Origin: Thermodesulfobacteriota bacterium
GTDB lineage: Bacteria > Desulfobacterota_D > UBA1144 > Nemesobacterales > CSP1-2
NCBI GenBank assembly: GCA_035559815.1
Contig: DATMAT010000029.1
Span: forward strand, 2,485-66,484
Reading direction: 5' to 3'
DNA length: 64,000 nucleotides
Shown: positions 2,565 through 62,878 of the stretch, in pieces
How the letters are laid out: every line of letters starts with the position of its first letter
How positions within the stretch are numbered: the first letter of the stretch is position 1
Position numbers and translations under genes: made by a program
Notes under the pieces: model-generated
Databases searched by the model: none
What the model was told of the DNA's origin: nothing
What the model saw: the letters and a program-made list of their open reading frames with translations, nothing else

Positions 2565-2667
2565 AATTAACTTTTAAACCTGTAGTTAACCCACTCTTAA
2601 CTCACCTTGACTTTATCAATATTAAGTTTATATTTGAGTTCCAATTCGAAGCTCTTTTAAAAATTAA

Positions 2668-2840
2668 GGTTCACGGGTGCCTATGAAGGCCTAAGAGGGA
2701 AGTCCGGTGAAAATCCGGCGCAGCCCGCTCGCTGCTGTAAGTAGCCCGTAAAGCCCTTTGCACTATGCCACTGGAATTCTTTTCATGCCGGGAAGGCGCA
2801 AGGGAGCCAGATGCTACAAGCCAGAAGACCTGCCTGGGGA
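2668..2840 (+). promoter_or_regulatory. cobalamin (B12) riboswitch
   Basis: ggtgcc...agggaagtccggtgaaaatccggcgcagcccgc...gccactgg...ccgggaaggcg and B12-box gccagaagacctgcc; directly upstream of a TonB-dependent receptor. Confidence 0.85.
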
Positions 2841-2929
2841 CTGAGTTTGCTTTTCTTCGAGGGGAGAAAGTAAATGACTTCAACCGTAGAACGAACCCCT
2901 GTCTTCTTCCCTGAAGACCGGGGGTCCTG

Positions 2930-4804
2930 ATGAAAAATTTGATCCTGCTGTTCCTCTTCTTATTCTCCGCGGATATCCTTGCGGAAGAGGAAGAGACTAT
3001 TACGCTTGAGCCGGTGGTTGTCGAAGAAGTACCGGTAGAGCCCCCTCTCGATTACCCTTCCGCTTTTTCAACCGTGATCGACCTCGGTGATTTCGGCGGT
3101 GAGTACAACACCACGTCTGAGATTCTTTCTTTCTCCCCGGGTGTAGTGGTGAGAGACTTCGGCGGGTTTGGCCAGCTCAAAACCTTGTCTATTCGCGGTT
3201 CATCCAATGACCAGGTGGTAATCCTGCTAGACGGCGTGAGGATAAACAGTCCACTGGGGGGAGGGGTGGATTTATCTACCATTCCCATTGATTACGTGGA
3301 GAGATTTGAAATCGTAAGAGGCGGCGCATCGGCCCTGGTAGGCTCTGATGCCATAGGCGGAGTGGTAAACATAGTAACCAAAAAAACAGACGACCCCTTC
3401 ACCAATTTGTCCTTTACATACGGTTCATTCAACACCCTGAGTGCAAACCTCTCCAGGGCTCAGAAATTAGGAAATCTGAGCTACTTCTTCTCTTATACAC
3501 ACGCCCAGAGTGAAGGCGATTTTAAGTTCAAGTCTGTCAATAACCTGACCCTCACCAGGATAAACAACGAGTTCTTCTCCGAAAGCTTTCTGGGGAAGGT
3601 TGAATATGAGCTTAACGGCTGGACGATCGGCTTTCTTAACGAATTTTATTACGACGACAAGGGTGTTCCCGGGCTCGGCGAATTTCAGCAGCCCGATGCG
3701 AACCAAAAAGACCTGAGAAACTTAACCAGCATTAACATTTCTAAGAGTGGATTTCTTAGGCAGGACATAGATTTTGACTTGGTCCTGTTCAACAGGTTTG
3801 ACTGGCTCGAATTCAAAAATCCTGAGCCCACGGTTGGAATCCCTATTGACACCCTCAGCAAGACCTTCAGCTTCGGCTTAAATCCGAGGCTCACCTGGTA
3901 TGCGCCTTACAACCAGATAGTGACCTTCGCCACGGAGGTGAGGGGAGATATTCTAAGGGATGAGGATTTTGATAACCCTAAAAGGTTTACTTTTAGTTCT
4001 TTTCTCAGCGATGAAATCAATCTTTTTGACGACCTCCTTCTCATAAGTCCGATAATACGGTTTGACCTTTACCAAACCTCCGCCGAGGAAAGCACGACCG
4101 ATACCGGATTCTCGCCGAAACTGGGAATTATATTCTCTCCTCTGAAGTATGTTTCTCTAAAAGGTAATGTTGGAAGGTCTTACAGAGCGCCCAGTTTCAG
4201 TGAACTCTTCTTTCCCGAAGAGGGTTTCATCGGCGGAAACCCAAACCTCAAGCCGGAAAGCTCTTTTGATTTTGATTTCGGTCTGGTTTTTTCCCATCCG
4301 CGAGTCGGTTTTGAGATTACCTACTTCAGGAACGAGGTTGATGACCTCATTCTTTTCGTTTTCGTCAGCGCGCAGAGGATAGAGCCATTAAACGTAGGAA
4401 ATGCAACCGAGCAGGGAATCGAGACCAGCCTGGTCTTAAGACCGTTTGATTTTATGGAGCTATTTGCCGGATACACCTTCCTTGACGGTGAGCTCGAGGA
4501 TACCGGGGCGCAGCTTCCGGGAAGGCCCAGAAACAAGTTTGACTTTCGTGGGGTTTTAACATACCGCTCATTCTCGTTCTTCTGGGAGACACATTATGTA
4601 GACAAGATTCCACTTAGTCCATTCCCGGACTCGGCTACCACCGATGCCAGAACCACGAGCGATGTGGGAGGAAAAGTGGAGTGGAAGAATATATTCGTTA
4701 CGCTCGAAGCAAAAAACGTCTTTAACAACCTGGACGTGCAGGACGCCTTAGACTTCCCGCTTCCGGGAAGGACGATTTTTTTTACGGCAGGAATAAAGTT
4801 TTGA
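2930..4804 (+). CDS. btuB: TonB-dependent outer-membrane receptor, BtuB-like (B12 uptake)
   Basis: signal peptide, plug-domain motifs (TLSIRGSS...ILLDGVRIN), C-terminal ...TAGIKF, riboswitch-controlled. Confidence 0.85.
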   Translation: MKNLILLFLFLFSADILAEEEETITLEPVVVEEVPVEPPLDYPSAFSTVIDLGDFGGEYNTTSEILSFSPGVVVRDFGGFGQLKTLSIRGSSNDQVVILLDGVRINSPLGGGVDLSTIPIDYVERFEIVRGGASALVGSDAIGGVVNIVTKKTDDPFTNLSFTYGSFNTLSANLSRAQKLGNLSYFFSYTHAQSEGDFKFKSVNNLTLTRINNEFFSESFLGKVEYELNGWTIGFLNEFYYDDKGVPGLGEFQQPDANQKDLRNLTSINISKSGFLRQDIDFDLVLFNRFDWLEFKNPEPTVGIPIDTLSKTFSFGLNPRLTWYAPYNQIVTFATEVRGDILRDEDFDNPKRFTFSSFLSDEINLFDDLLLISPIIRFDLYQTSAEESTTDTGFSPKLGIIFSPLKYVSLKGNVGRSYRAPSFSELFFPEEGFIGGNPNLKPESSFDFDFGLVFSHPRVGFEITYFRNEVDDLILFVFVSAQRIEPLNVGNATEQGIETSLVLRPFDFMELFAGYTFLDGELEDTGAQLPGRPRNKFDFRGVLTYRSFSFFWETHYVDKIPLSPFPDSATTDARTTSDVGGKVEWKNIFVTLEAKNVFNNLDVQDALDFPLPGRTIFFTAGIKF

Positions 4805-7792: not shown

Positions 7793-8464
7793 ATGGAACG
7801 TAATTTTTTAGGAGTTTTGATGAATCATAATCTGAGTGTGCTTTTACTATTTATAGTCATGATAAGCAACTTAGCGTGCAGTCCTAAAATAGTATCTTTT
7901 GAGGCAAACCCAATTTTTGTATGTGAAGGGCAAAGTACCCGAGTTTCCTGGAAGGCTAGAGGCAGCACTGTACTTTTATCTAATCCTTTGCTTCCCGGAA
8001 CGGGGGCAGTGGAACCTGCCGGCTCCGAGAGATTTACTCCGATTGATACTACCATCTTCACAATCAAGGCTATGCGTAACGGCAGAGAAACATTTGTTGA
8101 GCAAGAGGTTATTCTTTTGCCTAGTAGAACGGAAAGGGAGATAGTAATCAGTATCAAGCCTAGTGTTGACGGAGATCTGGTTGGTGTTGAAACGATTAAA
8201 CCGTCGGTTTTAAGAGACTTTAAAAGCATAGAAACCATAAGAGGGGATATTGATAGGCCTATAACCGTTCTGCATGAGGGTCGCGAGGTTATCCTTCAGG
8301 CTAATGGCGTCCCATCCGAAGCGATGCGTGGTACAGGGTTCAGCGGATACTGGGAGGTACGTGCAAAACCTCTTCCCGGAGAGGAATTTGACGACCCGGC
8401 TCATGCTCCTCCGGATAGCTTTCGTATATTGGTTAGCCTTTCCTGCACTGGTTACAAAAAGTAA
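7793..8464 (+). CDS. hypothetical lipoprotein
   Basis: signal peptide with lipobox SNLAC. Confidence 0.4.
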   Translation: MERNFLGVLMNHNLSVLLLFIVMISNLACSPKIVSFEANPIFVCEGQSTRVSWKARGSTVLLSNPLLPGTGAVEPAGSERFTPIDTTIFTIKAMRNGRETFVEQEVILLPSRTEREIVISIKPSVDGDLVGVETIKPSVLRDFKSIETIRGDIDRPITVLHEGREVILQANGVPSEAMRGTGFSGYWEVRAKPLPGEEFDDPAHAPPDSFRILVSLSCTGYKK

Positions 8465-9463: not shown

Positions 9464-9545
9464 ATTTAAACTAGCTTTTTAAAGTTGTTGGGCTCTATCT
9501 TATAAGTTTTGTGATGATATCTTCGGCCAAATTTGTCCTACATAG

Positions 9546-10060
9546 CAGATTGATTGTCGGAGTCGGCCTGATAGTAATCAAAGAACTACAATGACGGGCA
9601 AAGAAAAAGTAACCCCTCTTTAATTCTTCTTCTGTAAGCCTGTCCTGAGCGGAGTCGAAGGGCCTGTCCTGAGCAAAGTCGAAGGGCGGAAGGATGCACT
9701 TTATAGGCACTACTAGCTGCATGGCTAGTTTATGAAGTTTTTCTTTTTGCTTGGAATTGCATGGGGTGACTGTGCGTCTCTTCATCTCACGCACATTACA
9801 CACCACTAAATCCCCTCTCAAGAGGGTACTTGATGTAGAAATTCCCCTCTAGAGAGGGGTGTCCCGAAGGGACGGGGTGTGTCAGTTTAGAGAGGATGTC
9901 ACGGAGGCGTAGATAAGATATTTTAAAAAATAGGGTTAGGACGGTGCTTGCATAGTAACATAAAAGAGTGGACCTGATTTTTAAAATATGTTTTAGCCAT
10001 CTAAAGGCTTTGTTTTACGAGAGTGAATTGTTGATTCTTGATTATTTTGGACAGCAGTGA
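9546..10060. repeat. copy 1 of duplicated conserved noncoding element (5' module 9546-9627, 3' module 9938-10060, repeat insertions between)
   Basis: about 75% identity to 59562-59830 over both modules. Confidence 0.6.
9637..9700. repeat. family A repeats (cccttcgacNNNgctcaggNNgaacgg type), two tandem units, reverse orientation
   Basis: ctgtcctgagcggagtcgaagggc x2. Confidence 0.7.
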
Positions 10061-10250
10061 TCTTCGGTAGGAATTTTTTCTCGGTGAGCTTTCAAACTTT
10101 CTAAGTAGATTTTCATGGTGTCTTTAATATTCCCAACAGCTTCTTCGTAGGTATCACCCTGGGTGTGACAGCCTGGAAGAGCAGGGCAAAAGGCGTGGTA
10201 ACTGCCGTCTCCTCTCTTTCTAGAATTATCGTGTAGTTATATTCTTTCAT
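10042..10250 (-). pseudogene. hicB: HicB-family antitoxin, frameshifted (1-bp deletion)
   Basis: frame A gives MKEYNYTIILEREE; +1 frame continues DGSYHAFCPALPGCHTQGDTYEEAVGNIKDTMKIYLESL (HicB/UPF0150 signature); one missing G in gaggag(g)acggc restores it; no hicA adjacent. Confidence 0.55.
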
Positions 10251-22357: not shown

Positions 22358-23674
22358 ATGAAAATCCCGGAGGGTCTTAATGTCGCTTTAGATTTTGGTC
22401 TTCTCGATGCCATATTCACCAGACGGTCCAGAAGGTTCGGCCTGGGCATGGAGATGAAAGAAGGAACATTGAAATATAAATCCAGGTTCGAGCCGATTCC
22501 GCTTACCGAGCTTGAAGAAGCCTTCCTGGTCTGGGCGGGAACAGGTATGACCGGGCTTTCTTTGGGTGACCTTCCCCGAACCGGGATCTCCTGGCTTTTC
22601 CAGTGGACCGGGCGTTCCTGGCCCTGTTCCTGCAATTCTCATTCTACAGAGCTCTTCTATACCAACGATAACGGGGTATATATGGTAAAGCTCTTCAACC
22701 TCATGCCCGAGCCGGGGGAGACCCTGATTTTTTCGGGCAAATCCGAGGAGGAGAAGTTAGAGAAAGTAATAAGACTTTTCCGGAAGAGCCTGATAAAACT
22801 CCAGGATGGAAGAGCGGACTTGCCAAAAGGAGAGCCGGGTTTATTTGATTTCAACGCCTGGAATACGAACAAGCCGGGAACTACTTTTTTCATCCCGGTC
22901 ACCAATACCACCGTCGAATACATGGTTCTTTTATTTATCTATTTCGGCTCTAAATATGGATTCAACATCATCGACGAGCTTAATGGCGGAAGGTCATGCG
23001 GCCTGGATAAATGGATTGAGAAGGGTTATATAAGAAATGACGTAAGAATGTCTCTCTTCGACCTTGAGCTTAGGGTTCTCACCACGCTGAATGTGGAACA
23101 GGCTTTTATATGCCAGAATATGAACCTCGCACTCCAGGCGCTCGGGCTTGGAGGATGGGCTTTTACCGGGCTCCTTCCCCATTATGCTTTGGGGGTTAAT
23201 CCATCATACAAAGGACTAGGATTCAGGTTTATAAGCCCGGAGAAGAGTTTAAGAAGCATCTTGAACCCGGTTCCGGTAGGGCGTGACGGGGTATTTGAAG
23301 CGTTGTGCCCACCCTATGTAAAGGACATGGGTGAGGCGGTGGATAAATTTCTCAGGATTAGGGGAGATTTCTGGAAGGAGGGAAATCCCTATCCATACCG
23401 GAATCCCCAGGGAGTACTCGATGATGAGTATCATCCTTCTCCGGAGAGAGTACAGATTGTGAAGGATTTTTGCACCTACGTTTATGAGAACTATGGTAGA
23501 TTCCCGGCATTTCTCGACCCGATGTTTGCGAGGCTGGTTTTCCAGGCCCATCATCTTGACCTGGAATTTTATGATAAACACTACACCGAAGGGGCATACA
23601 CCGAGGTTCACAAGAATCACTTCAAGCTCTGGCACCCGGAGATTGTGGATTTGGGATTGCGAAATTCGGAGTAA
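22358..23674 (+). CDS. nitroreductase-fold (SagB-type dehydrogenase-like) protein with about 170-aa C-terminal extension
   Basis: LDAIFTRRSRRF (nitroreductase RRSxR motif) and EQAFICQNMNLALQALGLGGWAFTG (FMN-site motif). Confidence 0.45.
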   Translation: MKIPEGLNVALDFGLLDAIFTRRSRRFGLGMEMKEGTLKYKSRFEPIPLTELEEAFLVWAGTGMTGLSLGDLPRTGISWLFQWTGRSWPCSCNSHSTELFYTNDNGVYMVKLFNLMPEPGETLIFSGKSEEEKLEKVIRLFRKSLIKLQDGRADLPKGEPGLFDFNAWNTNKPGTTFFIPVTNTTVEYMVLLFIYFGSKYGFNIIDELNGGRSCGLDKWIEKGYIRNDVRMSLFDLELRVLTTLNVEQAFICQNMNLALQALGLGGWAFTGLLPHYALGVNPSYKGLGFRFISPEKSLRSILNPVPVGRDGVFEALCPPYVKDMGEAVDKFLRIRGDFWKEGNPYPYRNPQGVLDDEYHPSPERVQIVKDFCTYVYENYGRFPAFLDPMFARLVFQAHHLDLEFYDKHYTEGAYTEVHKNHFKLWHPEIVDLGLRNSE

Positions 23675-24952: not shown

Positions 24953-25075
24953 TTCACCCTTCGACTGCGCTCAGGGTGAACGGTTTTTATTCCTTATTTC
25001 CAGCGGATGTAAATCCGCTCATGCTGAGTTTAGTCGAAGAATGAATTTAAAATGTAGGGAGTTCATCCTTCGTCA
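24953..25075. repeat. family A composite hairpin repeat
   Basis: cccttcgactgcgctcagggtgaacgg...cagcggatgtaaatccgctcatgctgag...gtcgaag. Confidence 0.7.
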
Positions 25076-25979: not shown

Positions 25980-26270
25980 CCATACTTCAACCCTTCGACT
26001 ACGCTGGACTACGGGATGAGAGGATTTGCATCCGCTGGAAATGAGAAAAAACTCCGTTCATACTGACCTTGTGAGTCTGTCGAACGATCGAAGAATGAAT
26101 ACCTCAAGAAATTCATACTTCGACCCTTCGACGATGCTCAGGACTTCAGTATGAGCGGATTTACATCCGCTAAAATAATTAATGATTAATAAAACCCGTT
26201 CGTCCTGAGCCGGGTCGAAGGATGAACACCTTACGTTTCAAATTCATCCTTCGATTGAAACGGATGAGTG
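25980..26270. repeat. cluster of family A repeats (several units, both orientations)
   Basis: multiple cccttcgac...gctcagg / gtcgaagg units with inner agcggat-N-atccgct hairpins. Confidence 0.7.
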
Positions 26271-26565: not shown

Positions 26566-26907
26566 CTAAACTTTTAACTCTTCATTTACCATGTTGGTCA
26601 TCTCTTCCCGGACACTGTACATAAGCTCTGTCCATTGACGAATTACGGCCAGGTCATTTGTAGGCAGCTTTTTCTTGATCACGAGCCCTAGGCCGGTGGG
26701 TTCTACCTGGCAATCCTTATACTTGTCCTTAACAATTGCACCGAACCTGTAGAGTATGCGAATAGCCTCTATATCCTTACCCTCGAAGCGGGAAATCAAG
26801 ACCACTTCTTGGTCAAATCCCTCAAAGACTATATTCCACAGGCTGGCTTGCGATTCTAAGCCGAACTTGAGGTCAATGACATTGGATTGCGTATTGAGTT
26901 GCTTCAT
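26566..26907 (-). CDS. hypothetical protein (113 aa)
   Basis: ORF upstream of TPR gene, same strand. Confidence 0.3.
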   Translation of the reverse strand: MKQLNTQSNVIDLKFGLESQASLWNIVFEGFDQEVVLISRFEGKDIEAIRILYRFGAIVKDKYKDCQVEPTGLGLVIKKKLPTNDLAVIRQWTELMYSVREEMTNMVNEELKV

Positions 26908-28802: not shown

Positions 28803-28975
28803 GGTGAACACAACTCTTGATAAACAAAAGATCATGCTTCGACCCTTCGTCTCTGCTCAGGGCTCAGCATGAGCGTATGCATGCATCCGCTAAATAAGGA
28901 GAGATAAAAAACCGTTCACTTTGAGCCGGGCCACCCTGAGTTAGACCGAAGGGTCCAAGGGTGAACACCTCGGGT
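28803..28975. repeat. family A repeat cluster
   Basis: cgacccttcgtctctgctcagggctcag...agcgtatgcatgcatccgct...gaccgaagggtcc. Confidence 0.65.
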
Positions 28976-51106: not shown

Positions 51107-51194
51107 TTATTCGCTTAGCCTATGGTAAGTTATCCAGCCTTAAAAAAGCTTGTCAAATGCATTCAGTATCAAACTTGTCCAAATAGTAGATTGC

Positions 51195-51310
51195 TTTGCA
51201 ATGACACCTTCTGTCTTGTCAATGCGAGAGACCCTTCGACGGAGTTTACACTGAGTTTATCGAATGTGCTCCGGGCAGGCCTTGCTTAAAACGTGTGAGT
51301 ATAAGGTTAA
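51195..51310. repeat. 115-bp repeat unit, near-identical copy at 57095-57215
   Basis: caatgacacc...cccttcgacggagtttacactgagtttatcgaatgtgctc(c/a)gggc(a/t)ggccttgcttaaaacgt. Confidence 0.75.
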
Positions 51311-51560
51311 GTGGGAATACACCGATCTGTCATTCCCGCGGAAGCGGGAATCCAATCTTTAATTATAGATTCCCGATTAAAAGATTTCGGGAATGACAAA
51401 GTGGATGGATCCCCGATTAATCCAGTCCCCAAATGTTTTTATTGGTGAACATTCGGGAATGACAACCAGGATGGATCTCTGATTCAGCTTGTCCCCGCGT
51501 ATGCGGAGAACAGGAATCCACCGATCTGTCATTCCCGCGGAAGCGGGAATCCAGTATTGT
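51310..51560. repeat. family C palindromic repeats (gtcattcccgcg-gaag-cgggaatcc), mixed orientation
   Basis: at least 4 units/half-units at irregular spacing. Confidence 0.7.
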
Positions 51561-51579
51561 AATTCCGGAGCCCCGATCG

Positions 51580-51790
51580 ATCCCCCGGTTTGCCCTGGAG
51601 ACCTGGCTCAGGACTGGCGGGTTTTGTTTTTAAAGCTTTTACTGCAGATATACATCCGCTCATTCTGAGCATCGTCGAAGGATGAATTAAGAGTGAATTA
51701 AAGCGAGAGGGGTTCATTCTTCGACTCGCCTGTAGTGAGCATGTCGAACTACTCAGAATGAACGGGTTTTGTTTCATAAAGCCTTTTGAG
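51580..51790. repeat. family A-type repeats
   Basis: cctggctcaggactggcggg...cagatatacatccgctcattctgagcatcgtcgaagg... Confidence 0.65.
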
Positions 51791-56664: not shown

Positions 56665-57105
56665 TCAAATCAAATCTGACTTGAGGATTTCTTTTACCTT
56701 CTCCACAACGCCCCCTATTCTCACCGGCCTGGTGATAACGTGCTTGAACCCGGCCTTTTCAAGCCCTATGGCTTTCCTCTTGCCGCCAGCCGCTATTATT
56801 AAGATTGGAATCGATGAGGCGTGCTCAGAAAGAATCTTGATGTCCCGAGTTGGGTCATCTTGGGATTGATTGTCGTATATTATGATTGCCGGTATTATTC
56901 TCTTATCGGAAATCCAGTCGAGTCCTTCGTTCAATGTCTCAACGGCCAGGGTTCTGATCCCCTCCTCTAGAAGCTGGGCCCGGAGAAAAGCCCTTTCCCG
57001 CCAATCCTTCATTATCAATATCGCCGCACGTGTTTTCATGAGGAAACTATGACAATTATACTTCTTCCAACTGATCCAAAATAGGAGATTCCTTCGCAAT
57101 GACAC
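56665..57105 (-). CDS. stand-alone receiver-domain-like protein
   Basis: about 120-aa alpha/beta pattern resembling CheY-like REC; weak. Confidence 0.35.
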   Translation of the reverse strand: MSLRRNLLFWISWKKYNCHSFLMKTRAAILIMKDWRERAFLRAQLLEEGIRTLAVETLNEGLDWISDKRIIPAIIIYDNQSQDDPTRDIKILSEHASSIPILIIAAGGKRKAIGLEKAGFKHVITRPVRIGGVVEKVKEILKSDLI

Positions 57106-57215
57106 CTTGGGTCTTGTTATTGCGAAGAGCCATTCGGCCCTTCGACGGAGTTTACACTGAGTTTATCGAATGTGCTCAGGGCTGGCCTTGCTTAAAACGT
57201 TTGAGTATAAGTGAG
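57095..57215. repeat. second copy of the 115-bp unit
   Basis: see 51195-51310. Confidence 0.75.
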
Positions 57216-57222
57216 AATCCAC

Positions 57223-57530
57223 CAATCTGTCATTCCCGCGCAACTTGTCCTCGACCATGATCGGGGAGCGGGAATCCGTCCACCTGTCATTCCCACGCAA
57301 GTGGGAATCCATTGTTTAATTATGGATCCCCGATTAATCTTGTCCCCGCATGTGTCTGGCGGGGAACATTCGGGGATGACAACCAGGGGGATCCCCCGGT
57401 TAAAACGGGGGACGGGGATGACATGCGGAGAGGAACCTCGCTTGATCTCTCGGTTTAACCGGGGTACAGGCATGACCGGAAGACTACTGTCATTCCCGTG
57501 GAAGCGGGAATCCAGTTTTTCAAAAAATGG
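57223..57530. repeat. family C palindromic repeats with nested insertion
   Basis: gtcattcccgcg[caacttgtcctcgaccatgatcgggga]gcgggaatcc etc. Confidence 0.7.
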
Positions 57531-57629
57531 ATCCCCGATTCGATAAAATTCAGTGTGTACTCCATCGTAGGGATAAACTACGACGAAGTAGAACATGAGT
57601 AATCTTTTGACGAGTTCGCCCTTCCCCCG

Positions 57630-57900
57630 GTTAAACCAGGGGACCTGGCTCAGGACGAACGGGCTTTTATTTCATAAAGCCTTTACAGCGGATATACATC
57701 TGCTCATTCCTTCATTGCACTCACCCTTCGTCTCCGCTCAGGGTGAAGTGGTATTAGAATGAGCTTGCCCTTCCTTCATGGTGAGCGGAGTCGAACCATG
57801 AGCCTTTCGCCTCCGCTCAAAGCCTGTCCTGAACCTGCTGAGGGCATAAACTCCGTCGAACCATGGGCCCATCGGTAAACTCTGAGCCTGTCGAAGGATG
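57630..57900. repeat. family A-type repeat cluster
   Basis: cacccttcgtctccgctcagggtgaag...gagtcgaaccatgag... Confidence 0.7.
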
Positions 57901-58173
57901 TAGTTTCTTGACGAGTTCTATCAACTTACTACTCAAGGCGAAAGGCATCATTAAGGTGCTGAATTGCGCTTTGCATCAGATCGCTTTAAGGAGCTCACCC
58001 AGCGCGTTCGAGCGCTTCGCAATCGCAAAGTGAAGCAAGTCATTATTCCTTTTTTCGTATACTAATCTAAGCTAGGGGTTGGAAAAAATGGAAAAAAAGG
58101 GCCTTGTGTGTTACCTTTTTAATACGAAGAGGGTTTAAATCTAAGGGTACTAAACTGTCCAAGGAGGACTCTA

Positions 58174-58626: not shown

Positions 58627-58703
58627 TGATTATTTAGCCACGGAGAACATAGAGACTTCGCTAAGATCAGTCGAGCATTCAAGAATTTTTCTTTGAGCTA
58701 TTA

Positions 58704-58744
58704 AAGCCAGAGAGATTAAACACATCTTTCTGGCTTTTTATTTG
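58704..58744 (+). terminator. intrinsic terminator
   Basis: aaagccagaga...tctttctggc then tttttatttg. Confidence 0.6.
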
Positions 58745-58989
58745 CCCCGTGAGATAAGTTTTACTATCCAACGGGTTGAGATACGCAGTGGTATTAACCC
58801 ACGAAACGAGGGTCTCTCAGGTCTCACGGAATTATCTCTTGGGGTTAATACTGCTTTCCAAAAAATTAGAAACCAGTGGTTCACACTCGCAAACAAGGAC
58901 TTTAGATAGGTAAAAAGTCTTTTTAAAATCAGGTTTACTTTTCTATGTTTGTTATGCAAGTGCTGTTCCAACCCTATTCGTTGAAATTG

Positions 58990-59165
58990 CCTTTTTAACC
59001 CTGCTCACCCTTCGTCTCCGCTCAGGGTGAAGGGCATGGTATTGCTTGGAGTTTTAGACCTGCCTTCATGGTGAGCGGAGTCGAACCATGAGTAGTTCGA
59101 TTGCGCTCAAAGCCTGTCCTGAGGAATAAACTCAGTCGAACCATGGACCCTTCTAAGCATAATCT
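58990..59165. repeat. family A repeat cluster
   Basis: near-copy of 57720-57870. Confidence 0.7.
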
Positions 59166-59298
59166 CGTTTTTTCAATGGATTGCTTCGTCGCTTTGCTCC
59201 TCGCAATGACACCCAGGAAATGGCGACTCTTCTCTCTGACTCCACGCGAAGCAATCTTTTAATTTCGGACAAGGTTGACCGCTACAAATGATGGCTTA

Positions 59299-59326
59299 GT
59301 AGGGGCACGCTGCAGCGTGCCCCTAC
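59299..59326. repeat. REP (GTAG-type palindrome)
   Basis: gtaggggcacgctgcagcgtgcccctac. Confidence 0.65.
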
Positions 59327-59561
59327 CATAGTAAAAAGACGTCTGAAGAAAAAAACTAAGTATTATCCCAACCCGTGAAATAAATTTTACTATCTAACTA
59401 ACTCGCCATACTCCAAAGCTAGTGCTGTTTTATAACGATTTGCACGTAAATATGGAACCAACATTCGTATATGTAAGACGTGAGAGTATGTGTTGATCCC
59501 CAATTAGAAAGATAATAAAAGATAATAGAGGTTAAAACTGTCCCAAATAGAGGGATTGATT

Positions 59562-59830
59562 GCAAGAGTTCGTCTGATAGTAATCAAAGGGCTCCAATGA
59601 CGGATAAATAAGAGGAAGCAAACCCCTCTCTTTAATTCCCCCCCTTAGTAAGGGGGGAAATGCAAGGGGGTTAGAAGGGCTATTTGAACGAATAGGATCA
59701 GTACAGCGCTTGCATAGGAAACATCAAAGAGAGTAACCTGATTTTAAGAAGCCGTTTTATCCGTCGAAGAGCCTTGTTTTATAAAGGGTGAATCTGTTGG
59801 TTTTTAATTATTTTTGATAGCAGTGTATAC
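59562..59830. repeat. copy 2 of duplicated conserved noncoding element, followed by hicB 3' fragment (59809-59865)
   Basis: aligns to 9546-9627 and 9938-10060; tacactgctatcaaaaataa corresponds to hicB end gatcactgctgtccaaaataa. Confidence 0.6.
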
Positions 59831-59874
59831 AGGGTATCCTTTGAGGCAATGCCTAATGATCGTATAGATCGTTT

Positions 59875-59902
59875 GGAGGGGTTCAAAATTTTGAACCCCT
59901 CC
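59875..59902. repeat. REP-like perfect palindrome
   Basis: ggaggggttcaaaattttgaacccctcc. Confidence 0.55.
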
Positions 59903-60032
59903 AAAAGCAAAATACATTCAGCACATAGCAAAGTTATGGGCTCTATTATTCAGTGCAGACAAATCTGCCGCTCAGGCTGTTCTGCGTGTTTTTACACAAC
60001 AAACAGATTTTTTATATTTTAATGAAAAGCTC

Positions 60033-60061
60033 TTGACAAGGTATGTGATTTGTGATGTAAT
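60033..60061 (+). promoter_or_regulatory. sigma70-like promoter (TTGACA-17-TGTAAT)
   Basis: ttgaca aggtatgtgatttgtga tgtaat. Confidence 0.45.
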
Positions 60062-60136
60062 TGCTTTAATTTTAAAGGAGGATAGAAAGAGTGATGTCAT
60101 CTGTTCAAGCCTGTTTTGGATCCACAAAGAAAGGGC

Positions 60137-60165
60137 TTGACAATCAATTTTTTCTGTGTTGTAAT
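60137..60165 (+). promoter_or_regulatory. second sigma70-like promoter (TTGACA-17-TGTAAT)
   Basis: ttgaca atcaattttttctgtgt tgtaat. Confidence 0.45.
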
Positions 60166-60312
60166 TCAAAGCATCCAAAAGTCTGGAGGAGGCTTTTTTA
60201 AAAATCTTAAGGAGGATGAAAGCCATCTCAAAAAATCAATTCCCGAATCCAACCGTTTTTTCCCATAATCAATACCTGAAGCTTAATAAAACAACGAAAA
60301 AGGAGGGTGTAA

Positions 60313-62812: not shown

Positions 62813-62825
62813 ACAAGCGTGACCT

Positions 62826-62853
62826 GTAGGGGTTCAAAATTTCGAACCCCTAC
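62826..62853. repeat. REP (GTAG-type palindrome)
   Basis: gtaggggttcaaaatttcgaacccctac. Confidence 0.65.
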
Positions 62854-62878
62854 ATATTTTATATAAGCGTTGAAAACT

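What the first reader, a model, noticed from the sequence alone, without database searches (positions are those of the whole stretch)
9546..10250. Duplicated conserved noncoding element tied to decaying hicB genes, with copy 2 at 59562-59865
Two modules, about 80 nt 5' and about 125 nt 3', are shared at about 75% identity between the two loci. They are interrupted by different inserted small repeats in each copy. On the minus strand each copy is immediately 3' of a HicB-type antitoxin gene. Copy 1 has a near-complete hicB with a 1-bp deletion at 10042-10250. Copy 2 retains only about 55 nt of the hicB 3' end. No hicA is present. The element could be a decayed toxin gene, an sRNA or regulatory region that travelled with a hicAB module, or the end of an unrecognised mobile element.
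Basis: seen in the sequence. Interest (0 to 1): 0.55.

Follow-up and report, generated by a model that had tools for sequence, protein, structure and literature searches.

The report
Small mobile element, not hicAB relic
The "conserved noncoding element" is a roughly 290-bp non-autonomous transposon (a MITE) present three times in this window, and one copy happened to land in the 3' end of an already toxin-less hicB gene, so this is an ordinary kind of selfish DNA, not a hicAB-linked RNA or a decayed toxin gene.

Summary
The two shared modules are real: 75% identity over 100 nt and 76% over 145 nt. [quoted passage not shown]

Full-length copies of 285-294 bp occur in the window at 59532-59825 and in three unrelated metagenome contigs that carry no hicB. 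They have terminal inverted repeats (CACTGCTGTCCAAAATAA / CAAACTTGTCCAAAATAA, with a 12-bp perfect core). Their 8-9-bp target-site duplications are perfect: AAATACCA, GGAGGTAT and, at copy 1, CCGAAGAT.

Copy 1 (9527-10059, minus strand) carries about 250 bp of nested small repeats and sits inside hicB. Removing it plus one duplication copy restores the HicB tail ...EKIPTEDIITKLIR*, matching relatives (...TEDIIIKPVKVAL*).

hicA had already been deleted. Only its last codons, KIEPNNFKKLV*, remain at 9466-9501, outside the modules.

The supposed hicB remnant at copy 2 is just the MITE terminus. Beyond it the flank resembles hicB no better than chance.

There is no Rfam match, no convincing conserved RNA structure and no HicA signal in the modules. 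The partner transposase was not found.

Verdict: a new member of a known kind, of low interest.

The parts
9527..10059 (-). MITE copy 1, 533 bp, inserted in the 3' end of hicB. It runs CACTGCTGTCC... (at 10059) to ...GGACAAATTTGG (at 9527).
   Evidence: Boundaries and flanking duplication. nhmmer with the family model hits the arms at E 2e-42 and 2e-31. Orthologous copies are in L007/L017, L013 and L022.
9881..10059 (-). Its first 18 nt provide hicB's present last 5 codons (HCCPK) and stop codon. The inner boundary is approximate.
   Evidence: Alignments; nhmmer model positions 1-167 map to 10059-9896.
9628..9880 (.). Nested block of unrelated small repeats inside copy 1 (approximate limits). 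It includes CCCTTCGAC..GCTCAGGAC units found elsewhere in the window and a 48-nt palindrome at 9812-9859.
   Evidence: Absent from the canonical copies. Parts match 24957-24975, 26114-26144, 28827-28861, 57724-57742 and 59008-59026. It is 95-100% identical in ortholog L022.
9527..9627 (-).
10060..10067 (.). Target-site duplication, left copy (ATCTTCGG on +, which is CCGAAGAT in hicB sense).
   Evidence: An identical 8-mer abuts both element ends; sequence.
9519..9526 (.). Target-site duplication, right copy (ATCTTCGG on +).
   Evidence: Removing the MITE plus this copy restores the HicB reading frame.
10042..10250 (-). hicB pseudogene with a 1-bp deletion near 10210. Codons after ...IPTED (10042-10059) are MITE-derived.
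   Evidence: Pfam PF15919 at E 2e-10 after repair. tblastn gives 83% identity to P0001. Orthologs L007 and L013 are intact at this site.
9495..9518 (-). Displaced original hicB tail (IITKLIR*), separated from the rest of hicB by the MITE.
   Evidence: It matches L008 HicB ...EDIIIKPVKVAL*, and L022 reads IIIKPIK*.
9466..9510 (-). Remnant of the hicA 3' end (KTYKIEPNNFKKLV*, of which KIEPNNFKKLV* at 9466-9501 matches HicA). Its stop lies 2 nt from the stop of the convergent DUF1152 gene. This is all that is left of the toxin gene.
   Evidence: tblastn with 120 HicA proteins, best E 0.004 against a 1.2-kb database. Same position as intact hicA in syntenic L008. L022 reads KIEPGDFKKLV*.
59532..59825 (-). 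MITE copy 2, 294 bp, near-canonical, intergenic, with no hicB next to it.
   Evidence: nhmmer E 1e-76 over model positions 1-285; boundaries; flank tests.
59826..59833 (.). Degenerate target-site duplication of copy 2, left (CCTGTATA in element sense).
   Evidence: 6 of 8 match CCTCTATT at 59524-59531.
59524..59531 (.). Degenerate target-site duplication of copy 2, right (CCTCTATT in element sense).
58850..59024 (+). MITE copy 3: left arm and centre only. It is inverted relative to copies 1 and 2, and on the right it runs into other small repeats.
   Evidence: blastn 74% over 140-157 nt, E 2e-17 and 5e-19. nhmmer model positions 2-181, E 3e-34. Alignment A2.

Best explanation
[quoted passage not shown] It is a DNA transposon of about 290 bp with no transposase gene. 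It is bounded by imperfect 18-bp terminal inverted repeats with a perfect 12-bp core, TGTCCAAAATAA. It has a central G/C-rich hairpin between two AT-rich arms.

By inference, it is moved in trans by a DDE-type transposase of an unidentified insertion sequence. That enzyme would bind the inverted termini and make staggered cuts 8-9 bp apart in the target, which on repair become the flanking direct repeats.

In this genome there are three old copies, 69-76% identical to one another:
- Copy 1 inserted after codon 64 of a solo hicB whose toxin partner hicA had already been deleted. It replaced the HicB C-terminal tail with 5 element-encoded codons. It later received nested small-repeat insertions, and hicB then acquired a frameshift.
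- Copy 2 is an independent intergenic insertion.
- Copy 3 is a truncated one.

The shared 'modules' are the two arms of the element. The apparent link to hicB is one insertion event plus the element terminus being misread as a hicB end.
For: Shown:
1. A 22-specified-base pattern common to all known copies retrieved six metagenome loci. L018, L020 and L021 carry the whole element (382, 285 and 286 bp) between unrelated genes with no hicB: SMC/MFS, a TerB-like ORF/thiolase, and a sigma-like ORF/membrane protein. Their flanks share no similarity with each other or with the window.
2. Exact direct repeats abut the ends: GGAGGTAT in L020, AAATACCA in L021 and CCGAAGAT at window copy 1, each 8 of 8. 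L020 and L021 are 9 of 9 if the element is read as CA...TG. Copy 2 keeps 6 of 8.
3. The termini are inverted repeats, 14 of 18 with a 12-bp perfect core. They pair in the predicted fold, with z -2.7 and -3.9.
4. Empty-site logic: deleting copy 1 plus one duplication copy gives ...EKIPTEDIITKLIR*, and in L022 ...AENIIIKPIK*. This is collinear with uninterrupted HicB in L008 and L011...TEDIIIKPVKVAL*.
5. L018, L020 and L021 are 93-97% identical to one another, which suggests recent movement. Window copies are 69-81% identical to them and to each other.
6. There is no coding capacity: stops in all six frames, longest open stretch 68 codons. GC is 38-40% against 45% for the window.
7. The family nhmmer model finds exactly three places in the window.

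Inferred: mobilisation in trans by a DDE transposase, following the general MITE model in PMC10969869 and PMC6382973.
Against: - No autonomous partner element with matching termini was found in the window or in the 22 fetched loci, so mobilisation is inferred, not shown.
- L018 lacks a recognisable duplication (4-5 matches of 8-9) although its copy is young.
- The outer 6 nt of the two termini match at only 2 of 6 positions.
- Everything rests on metagenome assemblies.
- Only about seven independent loci are known, so copy number per genome is unknown.
- Between orthologous loci the arms are much more diverged (68-80%) than the nested repeats and flanks (90-100%). This needs an extra assumption, namely exchange with other copies.
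Confidence: 0.9

Rival explanations
1. The modules are the decayed remains of the hicA toxin gene that once followed hicB, split by small-repeat insertions, with two paralogous hicBA loci decaying in parallel.
For: - In syntenic L008 an intact 76-aa HicA (PF07927) lies exactly between hicB and the convergent DUF1152 gene.
- In L007 the stretch after hicB reads MITLPKQGLSMVKTVFSKSGF..., which resembles a HicA N-terminus (43% over 21 aa, E 0.088 against a 1.2-kb database).
- A true hicA C-terminal remnant exists at 9466-9501.
Against: - The same sequence occurs complete, with inverted termini and target-site duplications, at loci with no hicB.
- The L007 reading frame is broken by a stop in its 95%-identical relative L013 and in the window.
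- Pfam finds no HicA in frame-corrected translations.
- A frameshift-tolerant profile alignment gives z 2.5, 1.4 and -0.8 against shuffles.
- Whole-window tblastn puts no HicA hit in the modules.
- Excising the modules restores the hicB tail directly followed by the hicA remnant, so the modules are an insertion and not the gene.
Confidence: 0.03
2. The element is a functional structured RNA (an sRNA, a 3' UTR element or a cis-regulator) that is conserved by selection and has been duplicated.
For: - It keeps 62-76% identity across three paralogues and several orthologues.
- Single copies fold better than shuffles, z -2.7 to -3.9.
- One long-range pairing (AATAGGGTT with AACCTGATTT) is kept in 5 sequences on the window + strand of copy 1.
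Against: - No Rfam family matches at gathering threshold or at E up to 10.
- RNAalifold consensus energy is only -1.6 and -8.8 kcal/mol for 190 columns, with 1-3 compensatory pairs.
- The fold signal comes mostly from the inverted termini and the G/C hairpin expected of a MITE.
- Between orthologous loci the arms diverge faster (68-80%) than neighbouring sequence.
- Copies lie in both orientations relative to neighbouring genes.
- No promoter-like or terminator-like sites are found at copy 1, and those near copy 2 are no more than shuffles give and lie outside the element.
Confidence: 0.05
3. The copies arose by segmental duplication or recombination of a hicB-containing region, not by transposition.
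For: - Copies 2 and 3 lie 0.5 kb apart in inverted orientation within one repeat-rich intergenic region.
- The L018 copy lacks a clear duplication.
Against: - Similarity stops exactly at the inverted termini in every copy.
- Flanks are unrelated.
- Perfect 8-9-bp direct repeats of different sequence flank three copies.
Confidence: 0.02

Closest known systems
Prokaryotic MITEs in general, as reviewed in PMC10969869 (for example the Correia element of Neisseria and Chunjie of Geobacter)
   Same: Length under 500 bp, short terminal inverted repeats, flanking direct repeats in younger copies, multicopy, more AT-rich than the host genome, no transposase, mostly intergenic or at gene ends, and the ability to create gene fusions.
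   Different: The sequence matches no family I could find: no literature hit for the terminus and no Rfam repeat-type family. The interior is not a simple long palindrome. Only the 12-18-bp ends and a central G/C hairpin are self-complementary.
MITEAba12 of Acinetobacter baumannii (PMC6382973)
   Same: A non-autonomous element with imperfect terminal inverted repeats of about 16 bp and 9-bp target-site duplications. It has been seen inserted into a gene and at the 3' end of another, creating a fusion. It is presumed to be mobilised in trans by a DDE transposase.
   Different: MITEAba12 is 113 bp, 78% AT, and has an identified parent (ISAba12) with matching ends. Here the element is about 290 bp, about 61% AT, and no parent has been found. 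The sequences are unrelated.
HicAB type II toxin-antitoxin modules
   Same: Copy 1 lies in a genuine hicB (PF15919). Relatives have the hicB-hicA pair with overlapping stop and start codons at the same chromosomal position.
   Different: The repeated element is not part of the module. hicA is gone except for about 11 codons, and copies 2 and 3 and the metagenome copies have no hicB.
REP/BIME-type and other small palindromic repeats
   Same: The nested block in copy 1 and much of the window's intergenic DNA consist of such short G/C-rich hairpin units.
   Different: The two modules themselves are not members of those families. They match only each other and copy 3 in the window.

Membership tests
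MITE (non-autonomous DNA transposon) | Small size with no transposase coding capacity | tested here: met
   Canonical copies are 285, 286 and 294 bp. There are stops in all six frames and the longest open stretch is 68 codons.
MITE (non-autonomous DNA transposon) | Terminal inverted repeats | tested here: met
   CACTGCTGTCCAAAATAA vs the reverse complement of the right end, CAAACTTGTCCAAAATAA: 14 of 18, with a 12-bp perfect core. The ends pair in the predicted fold.
MITE (non-autonomous DNA transposon) | Target-site duplications of constant length but different sequence at different insertions | tested here: met
   L020 GGAGGTAT, L021 AAATACCA and window copy 1 CCGAAGAT are each 8 of 8. Copy 2 is 6 of 8, L022 5 of 8, and L018 is degenerate.
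MITE (non-autonomous DNA transposon) | Multiple copies at unrelated genomic sites | tested here: met
   Three sites in the window, plus L018, L019, L020 and L021 in other contigs with unrelated flanks.
MITE (non-autonomous DNA transposon) | Empty site in a relative that matches flank plus one duplication copy | tested here: met
   Excision in silico restores the HicB tail, collinear with L008 and L011.
MITE (non-autonomous DNA transposon) | Co-resident autonomous insertion sequence with matching termini and duplication length | tested here: inconclusive
   No further terminus matches in the 64-kb window or in the 22 loci.
HicAB toxin-antitoxin module | HicB antitoxin domain | tested here: met
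   Copy 1 only: PF15919 at E 2e-10 after repairing the 1-bp deletion.
HicAB toxin-antitoxin module | Adjacent HicA toxin gene (PF07927) | tested here: not met
   Only KIEPNNFKKLV* remains. No HicA signal in the modules.
   The flank is 21% identical to hicB, alignment scores are at shuffle level, and there is no adjacent tblastn hit.
Known structured RNA family (Rfam) | Match to a curated covariance model | tested here: not met
   Nothing at gathering threshold. Only chance-level hits at E above 0.6.
Novel structured RNA | Conserved secondary structure supported by compensatory changes | tested here: inconclusive
   Five sequences give consensus energies of -1.6 and -8.8 kcal/mol with 1 and 3 compensatory pairs. 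This is too few sequences to be decisive.

The most novel reading that the evidence does not exclude
This is an undescribed MITE family of Dadabacteria-like bacteria that is still moving in some relatives: their copies are 93-97% identical and two of them have perfect duplications. Two further properties are possible but unproven.

- It may prefer, or be tolerated at, the extreme 3' ends of genes, where it supplies new C-termini and stop codons. This is seen at hicB here, at a 180-aa ORF in L020, at a glutaredoxin-like ORF in L019, and 8 nt past the SMC stop in L021.
- Its arms, but not nested inserts, may be overwritten by ectopic conversion between copies. Orthologous arms are 68-80% identical while the sequence around them is 90-100% identical.
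Probability: 0.15. Interest if true: 0.35.

Novelty: new member of a known kind. Interest (0 to 1): 0.2.

Why it matters
Mainly as a correction. A repeat that looked like a conserved hicAB-associated noncoding element or sRNA is selfish DNA, so it should be masked or annotated as a MITE and not pursued as a regulator.

It also gives a clean, dated sequence of events for the decay of a toxin-antitoxin locus in an uncultured lineage:
1. The toxin gene was deleted. Relatives show at least two other independent deletions, which produce in-frame HicB-HicA C-terminal fusions.
2. The MITE inserted into the orphan antitoxin gene.
3. Small repeats inserted inside the MITE.
4. hicB suffered a frameshift here and a nonsense mutation in L022.

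The element's termini and its 8-9-bp duplication provide a handle for finding the responsible transposase in these genomes.

Tried and rejected
1. Decayed hicA. This was my own working hypothesis after finding the syntenic hicB-hicA-DUF1152 arrangement in L008 and the HicA-like ORF in L007.
- Whole-window tblastn with 120 HicA proteins gave no module hit.
- A small-database tblastn gave only the C-terminal remnant outside the modules, plus an E 0.088 N-terminal match in L007.
- A home-made frameshift-tolerant profile alignment against 500 dinucleotide shuffles gave z 2.5, 1.4 and -0.8.
- Pfam on frame-corrected translations found no HicA.
- The hypothesis was abandoned once the metagenome copies with duplications appeared.

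2. Rfam at gathering threshold and at E up to 10 found nothing relevant.

3. RNAalifold on five copies, both strands, gave weak consensus structures.

4. Promoter and terminator scans were no better than shuffles.

5. A genome-contig scan with a 5'-module pattern gave five hits, all chance on inspection.

6. Two viral-contig scans gave no hits.

7. A protein-database search with the longest open frame of the MITE, intended to find called ORFs or a parent transposase, gave no candidates.

8. Literature searches for the terminus sequence and for Dadabacteria MITEs found nothing relevant.

9. A possible decayed hicB next to copy 3 (tblastn E 0.039, gapped score reached by 24 of 500 shuffles) was not supported by local DNA alignment, where 407 of 1000 shuffles scored as well.

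10. Weak HicA tblastn hits at 23210-23359 and 26725-26880 were inspected. The latter lies in an unrelated 113-aa ORF.

Full report
**1. The observation**

The two regions were read and aligned. A sensitive blastn of each region against the whole window gives:
- 9534-9626 vs 59539-59638: 75.0% over 100 nt, E 2e-10.
- 9919-10059 vs 59681-59825: 75.9% over 145 nt, E 4e-20.

A 27-specified-base motif from the 5' module occurs exactly twice, against 0 expected. In copy 1 the modules are separated by about 250 nt. Parts of that spacer belong to small-repeat families seen elsewhere in the window (families). In copy 2 they are separated only by a short G/C hairpin.

The hicB reading is correct for copy 1. 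On the minus strand, 10042-10250 encodes MKEYNYTIILERE..., with one base missing in GAGGA-GACGGC. The repaired 69-aa protein hits Pfam HicB_lk_antitox (PF15919) at E 2e-10. It has many homologues of 70-74 aa at up to 88% identity.

The same blastn run revealed a third copy of the '3' module' at 58850-59001 on the opposite strand (74%, E 2e-17 to 5e-19).

**2. Source and relatives**

Exact look-ups show the window comes from an NCBI MAG labelled Thermodesulfobacteriota bacterium (locus tags VNN20_). The closest HicB cluster includes proteins labelled Candidatus Dadabacteria.

Contigs carrying close HicB homologues gave the comparative frame:
- L008 has AEC-transporter - (ORF) - hicB (74 aa) - hicA (76 aa, PF07927, ATGA overlap) - convergent DUF1152. 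This is the same neighbourhood as copy 1.
- L011 also has hicB-hicA.
- L009, L010 and L012 have a 69-aa HicB ending ...EKIPTEEFK(N/K)LL* that directly abuts DUF1152. This is an in-frame deletion fusing HicB to the last residues of HicA.
- Other cluster members show further variants...EADEFRKLL...KVPIKPALCS...EEFKGCYET....

Loss of the toxin gene with retention of hicB is therefore recurrent in this group.

L007, L013 and L022 are orthologues of copy 1, with the same flanking genes. They carry the same element after hicB.

**3. A hypothesis that failed**

Because hicA sits exactly where the modules sit, I first tested whether the modules are a decayed hicA.

The only solid HicA signal lies outside them. 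The minus strand at 9469-9510 reads KTYKIEPNNFKKLV, followed by a stop at 9466-9468, against the HicA C-terminus KDMGIEPEEFKKLL* (best E 0.004 against a 1.2-kb database). That stop is 2 nt from the DUF1152 stop.

Within the modules:
- Whole-window tblastn gave nothing.
- The L007 ORF MITLPKQGLSMVKTVFSKSGF... matched a HicA N-terminus only at E 0.088. It is interrupted by a stop in the 95%-identical L013 and in the window.
- A frameshift-tolerant profile alignment scored z 2.5, 1.4 and -0.8 against dinucleotide shuffles, while a true hicA scored z 58.
- Pfam found no HicA in frame-corrected translations.

Rfam gave no family for either copy. RNAalifold on five copies gave -1.6 and -8.8 kcal/mol with one and three compensatory pairs.

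**4. What it is**

A degenerate pattern matched by all five known copies of the 3' module (22 specified bases) was scanned against the metagenome collection. It returned six loci.

Besides the orthologues (L017, which is the same contig as L007, and L022), three contigs carry both modules joined by the short G/C hairpin, as one unit of 382, 285 and 286 bp (L018, L020, L021). There is no hicB nearby. L019 carries a 5'-truncated copy.

Their neighbours are unrelated genes:
- L021: between an SMC gene and an MFS-type transporter.
- L020: overlapping the last codons of a 180-aa ORF, upstream of a thiolase.
- L018: between a sigma-factor-like ORF and a membrane protein.

Their flanks share no similarity with each other or with the window.

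In every copy, similarity starts at CACTGCTGTCCAAAATAA and ends at TTATTTTGGACAAGTTTG(A). These ends are inverted repeats, 14 of 18 with a 12-bp perfect core.

Direct repeats immediately outside the ends:
- L020: GGAGGTAT on both sides.
- L021: AAATACCA on both sides.
- Window copy 1: CCGAAGAT on both sides (ATCTTCGG on the + strand at 9519-9526 and 10060-10067).
- These are 9 of 9, 9 of 9 and 8 of 9 if the element is taken as CA...TG.
- Copy 2 keeps 6 of 8, L022 5 of 8, and L018 is degenerate.

Other properties:
- The element has stops in all frames.
- Its GC content is 38-40% against 45% for the window.
- It folds with the termini paired and a central CCCCCC-loop-GGGGGG hairpin, z -2.7 and -3.9.

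These are the defining features of a MITE as summarised in PMC10969869 and PMC6382973.

An nhmmer model of the family finds exactly three places in the window:
- Copy 2, complete: 59825-59534, E 1e-76.
- Copy 1, as two arms: 10059-9896 and 9661-9528.
- Copy 3, left arm plus centre: 58850-59024.

**5. The relation to hicB**

Copy 1 is inserted after the codons ...I-P-T-E-D of hicB. The present end of the gene (HCCPK*) is the first 18 nt of the element.

Removing the element and one duplication copy, and repairing the frameshift, gives ...EKIPTEDIITKLIR*. The same operation in L022 gives ...EKIPAENIIIKPIK*. Both are collinear with L008 ...EKIPTEDIIIKPVKVAL*. In the next frame follows KIEPNNFKKLV* (KIEPGDFKKLV* in L022), the hicA C-terminus.

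The inferred order of events is:
1. hicA was deleted, leaving about 11 codons.
2. The MITE inserted into the orphan hicB in the common ancestor of the window, L007, L013 and L022.
3. Small repeats inserted into the centre of the MITE. This block is shared by the window and L022 at 95-100%.
4. hicB itself decayed: a frameshift here, a CAG-to-TAG nonsense change in L022, and still intact in L007 and L013.

At copy 2 the 'hicB 3' end' is only the element terminus, CACTGCTATCAAAAATAA. The 80 nt beyond it are 21% identical to hicB. Gapped and local alignment scores are at shuffle level, and no adjacent tblastn hit exists. Copy 3's flank gave a marginal tblastn hit (E 0.039), which a local DNA alignment did not support.

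**6. Mechanism**

Shown: the anatomy (termini, duplications, lack of coding capacity), multiple unrelated insertion sites, a reconstructed empty site, and near-identical young copies in relatives (93-97%).

Inferred from the general model of MITEs: a transposase encoded elsewhere binds the inverted termini, excises or copies the element, and inserts it at staggered cuts 8-9 bp apart.

From my own recollection only, several DDE insertion-sequence families make 8-9-bp duplications, among them IS4-type, IS256 and ISL3, and I recall IS4-type ends often starting with CA. No parent was found in the window or the fetched loci.

**7. An unexplained detail**

Between the window and its orthologue L022, identity varies sharply along the locus:
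- Flanking genes: 90-100%.
- Nested repeat block: 95-100%.
- MITE left arm: 68-77%.
- MITE right arm: about 80%.

The arms of orthologous copies are thus about as different as paralogues. Ectopic conversion by other copies in each genome would explain this. Assembly chimerism between copies is a less likely alternative. I did not test either.

**8. Verdict**

The interpretation that ties the element to hicAB is not supported. The element is a previously undescribed MITE family, an ordinary kind of object. Novelty: new member of a known kind. Interest is low, apart from the tidy record of toxin-antitoxin decay and a handle for finding the transposase.

Noticed in passing
window 2658-2851 (+): Cobalamin riboswitch (RF00174, 108.8 bits, E 2.5e-26), directly upstream of the TonB-dependent receptor gene at 2930-4804.
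   Followed up: no
L009 1661-1870, L010 1377-1586, L012 2244-2453; proteins P0244, P0246-P0250, P0252: Relatives have lost hicA by several independent deletions. These leave a solo hicB whose C-terminus is fused in frame to the last HicA residues (...EKIPTEEFKNLL*...EADEFRKLL*) or is otherwise rearranged. Orphan antitoxin retention looks recurrent in this lineage.
   Followed up: partly
window 9527-10059 vs L022 (10606-11113): Mosaic divergence between orthologous loci. The MITE arms are 68-80% identical while the nested repeats and flanking genes are 90-100% identical. This suggests ectopic conversion among MITE copies, or assembly mixing.
   Followed up: partly
window 58627-60312: A 1.7-kb intergenic stretch made almost entirely of repeats: truncated MITE copy 3, several small-repeat families, complete MITE copy 2 in the opposite orientation, and a palindrome.
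   Followed up: partly
window 59872-59905 and 62825-62854: A perfect 34-nt palindrome, GGAGGGGTTCAAAATTTTGAACCCCTCC..., next to copy 2, with a 90% similar palindrome 3 kb away. This is another small hairpin repeat family.
   Followed up: no
window 58746-58772 and 59372-59398: A 27-nt direct repeat (89% identical) lying outside copy 3 on its left and outside copy 2 on its right. Its meaning is unknown.
   Followed up: no
L020 2714-3256; L019 about 8170-8240; L021 1654-1663: The MITE repeatedly sits at the very 3' end of genes. It supplies the last ~9 codons and the stop of a 180-aa ORF in L020, and the last codons and stop of a glutaredoxin-like ORF in L019. It lies 8 nt past the SMC stop in L021.
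   Followed up: partly
L022 (FWPU01002778.1), hicB: The orthologous hicB carries a nonsense change (TGTCACAACTAGGGT, CAG to TAG), whereas L007 and L013 are intact and the window has a frameshift. These are independent inactivations after the MITE insertion.
   Followed up: yes
window 51180-51690 and 57070-57920: Two blocks about 5.9 kb apart share long arrays of the same small repeats in the same order (families D2, D5, D6, D8, D9, D12, D17 and D20; D9 is 96% identical over 74 nt).
   Followed up: no
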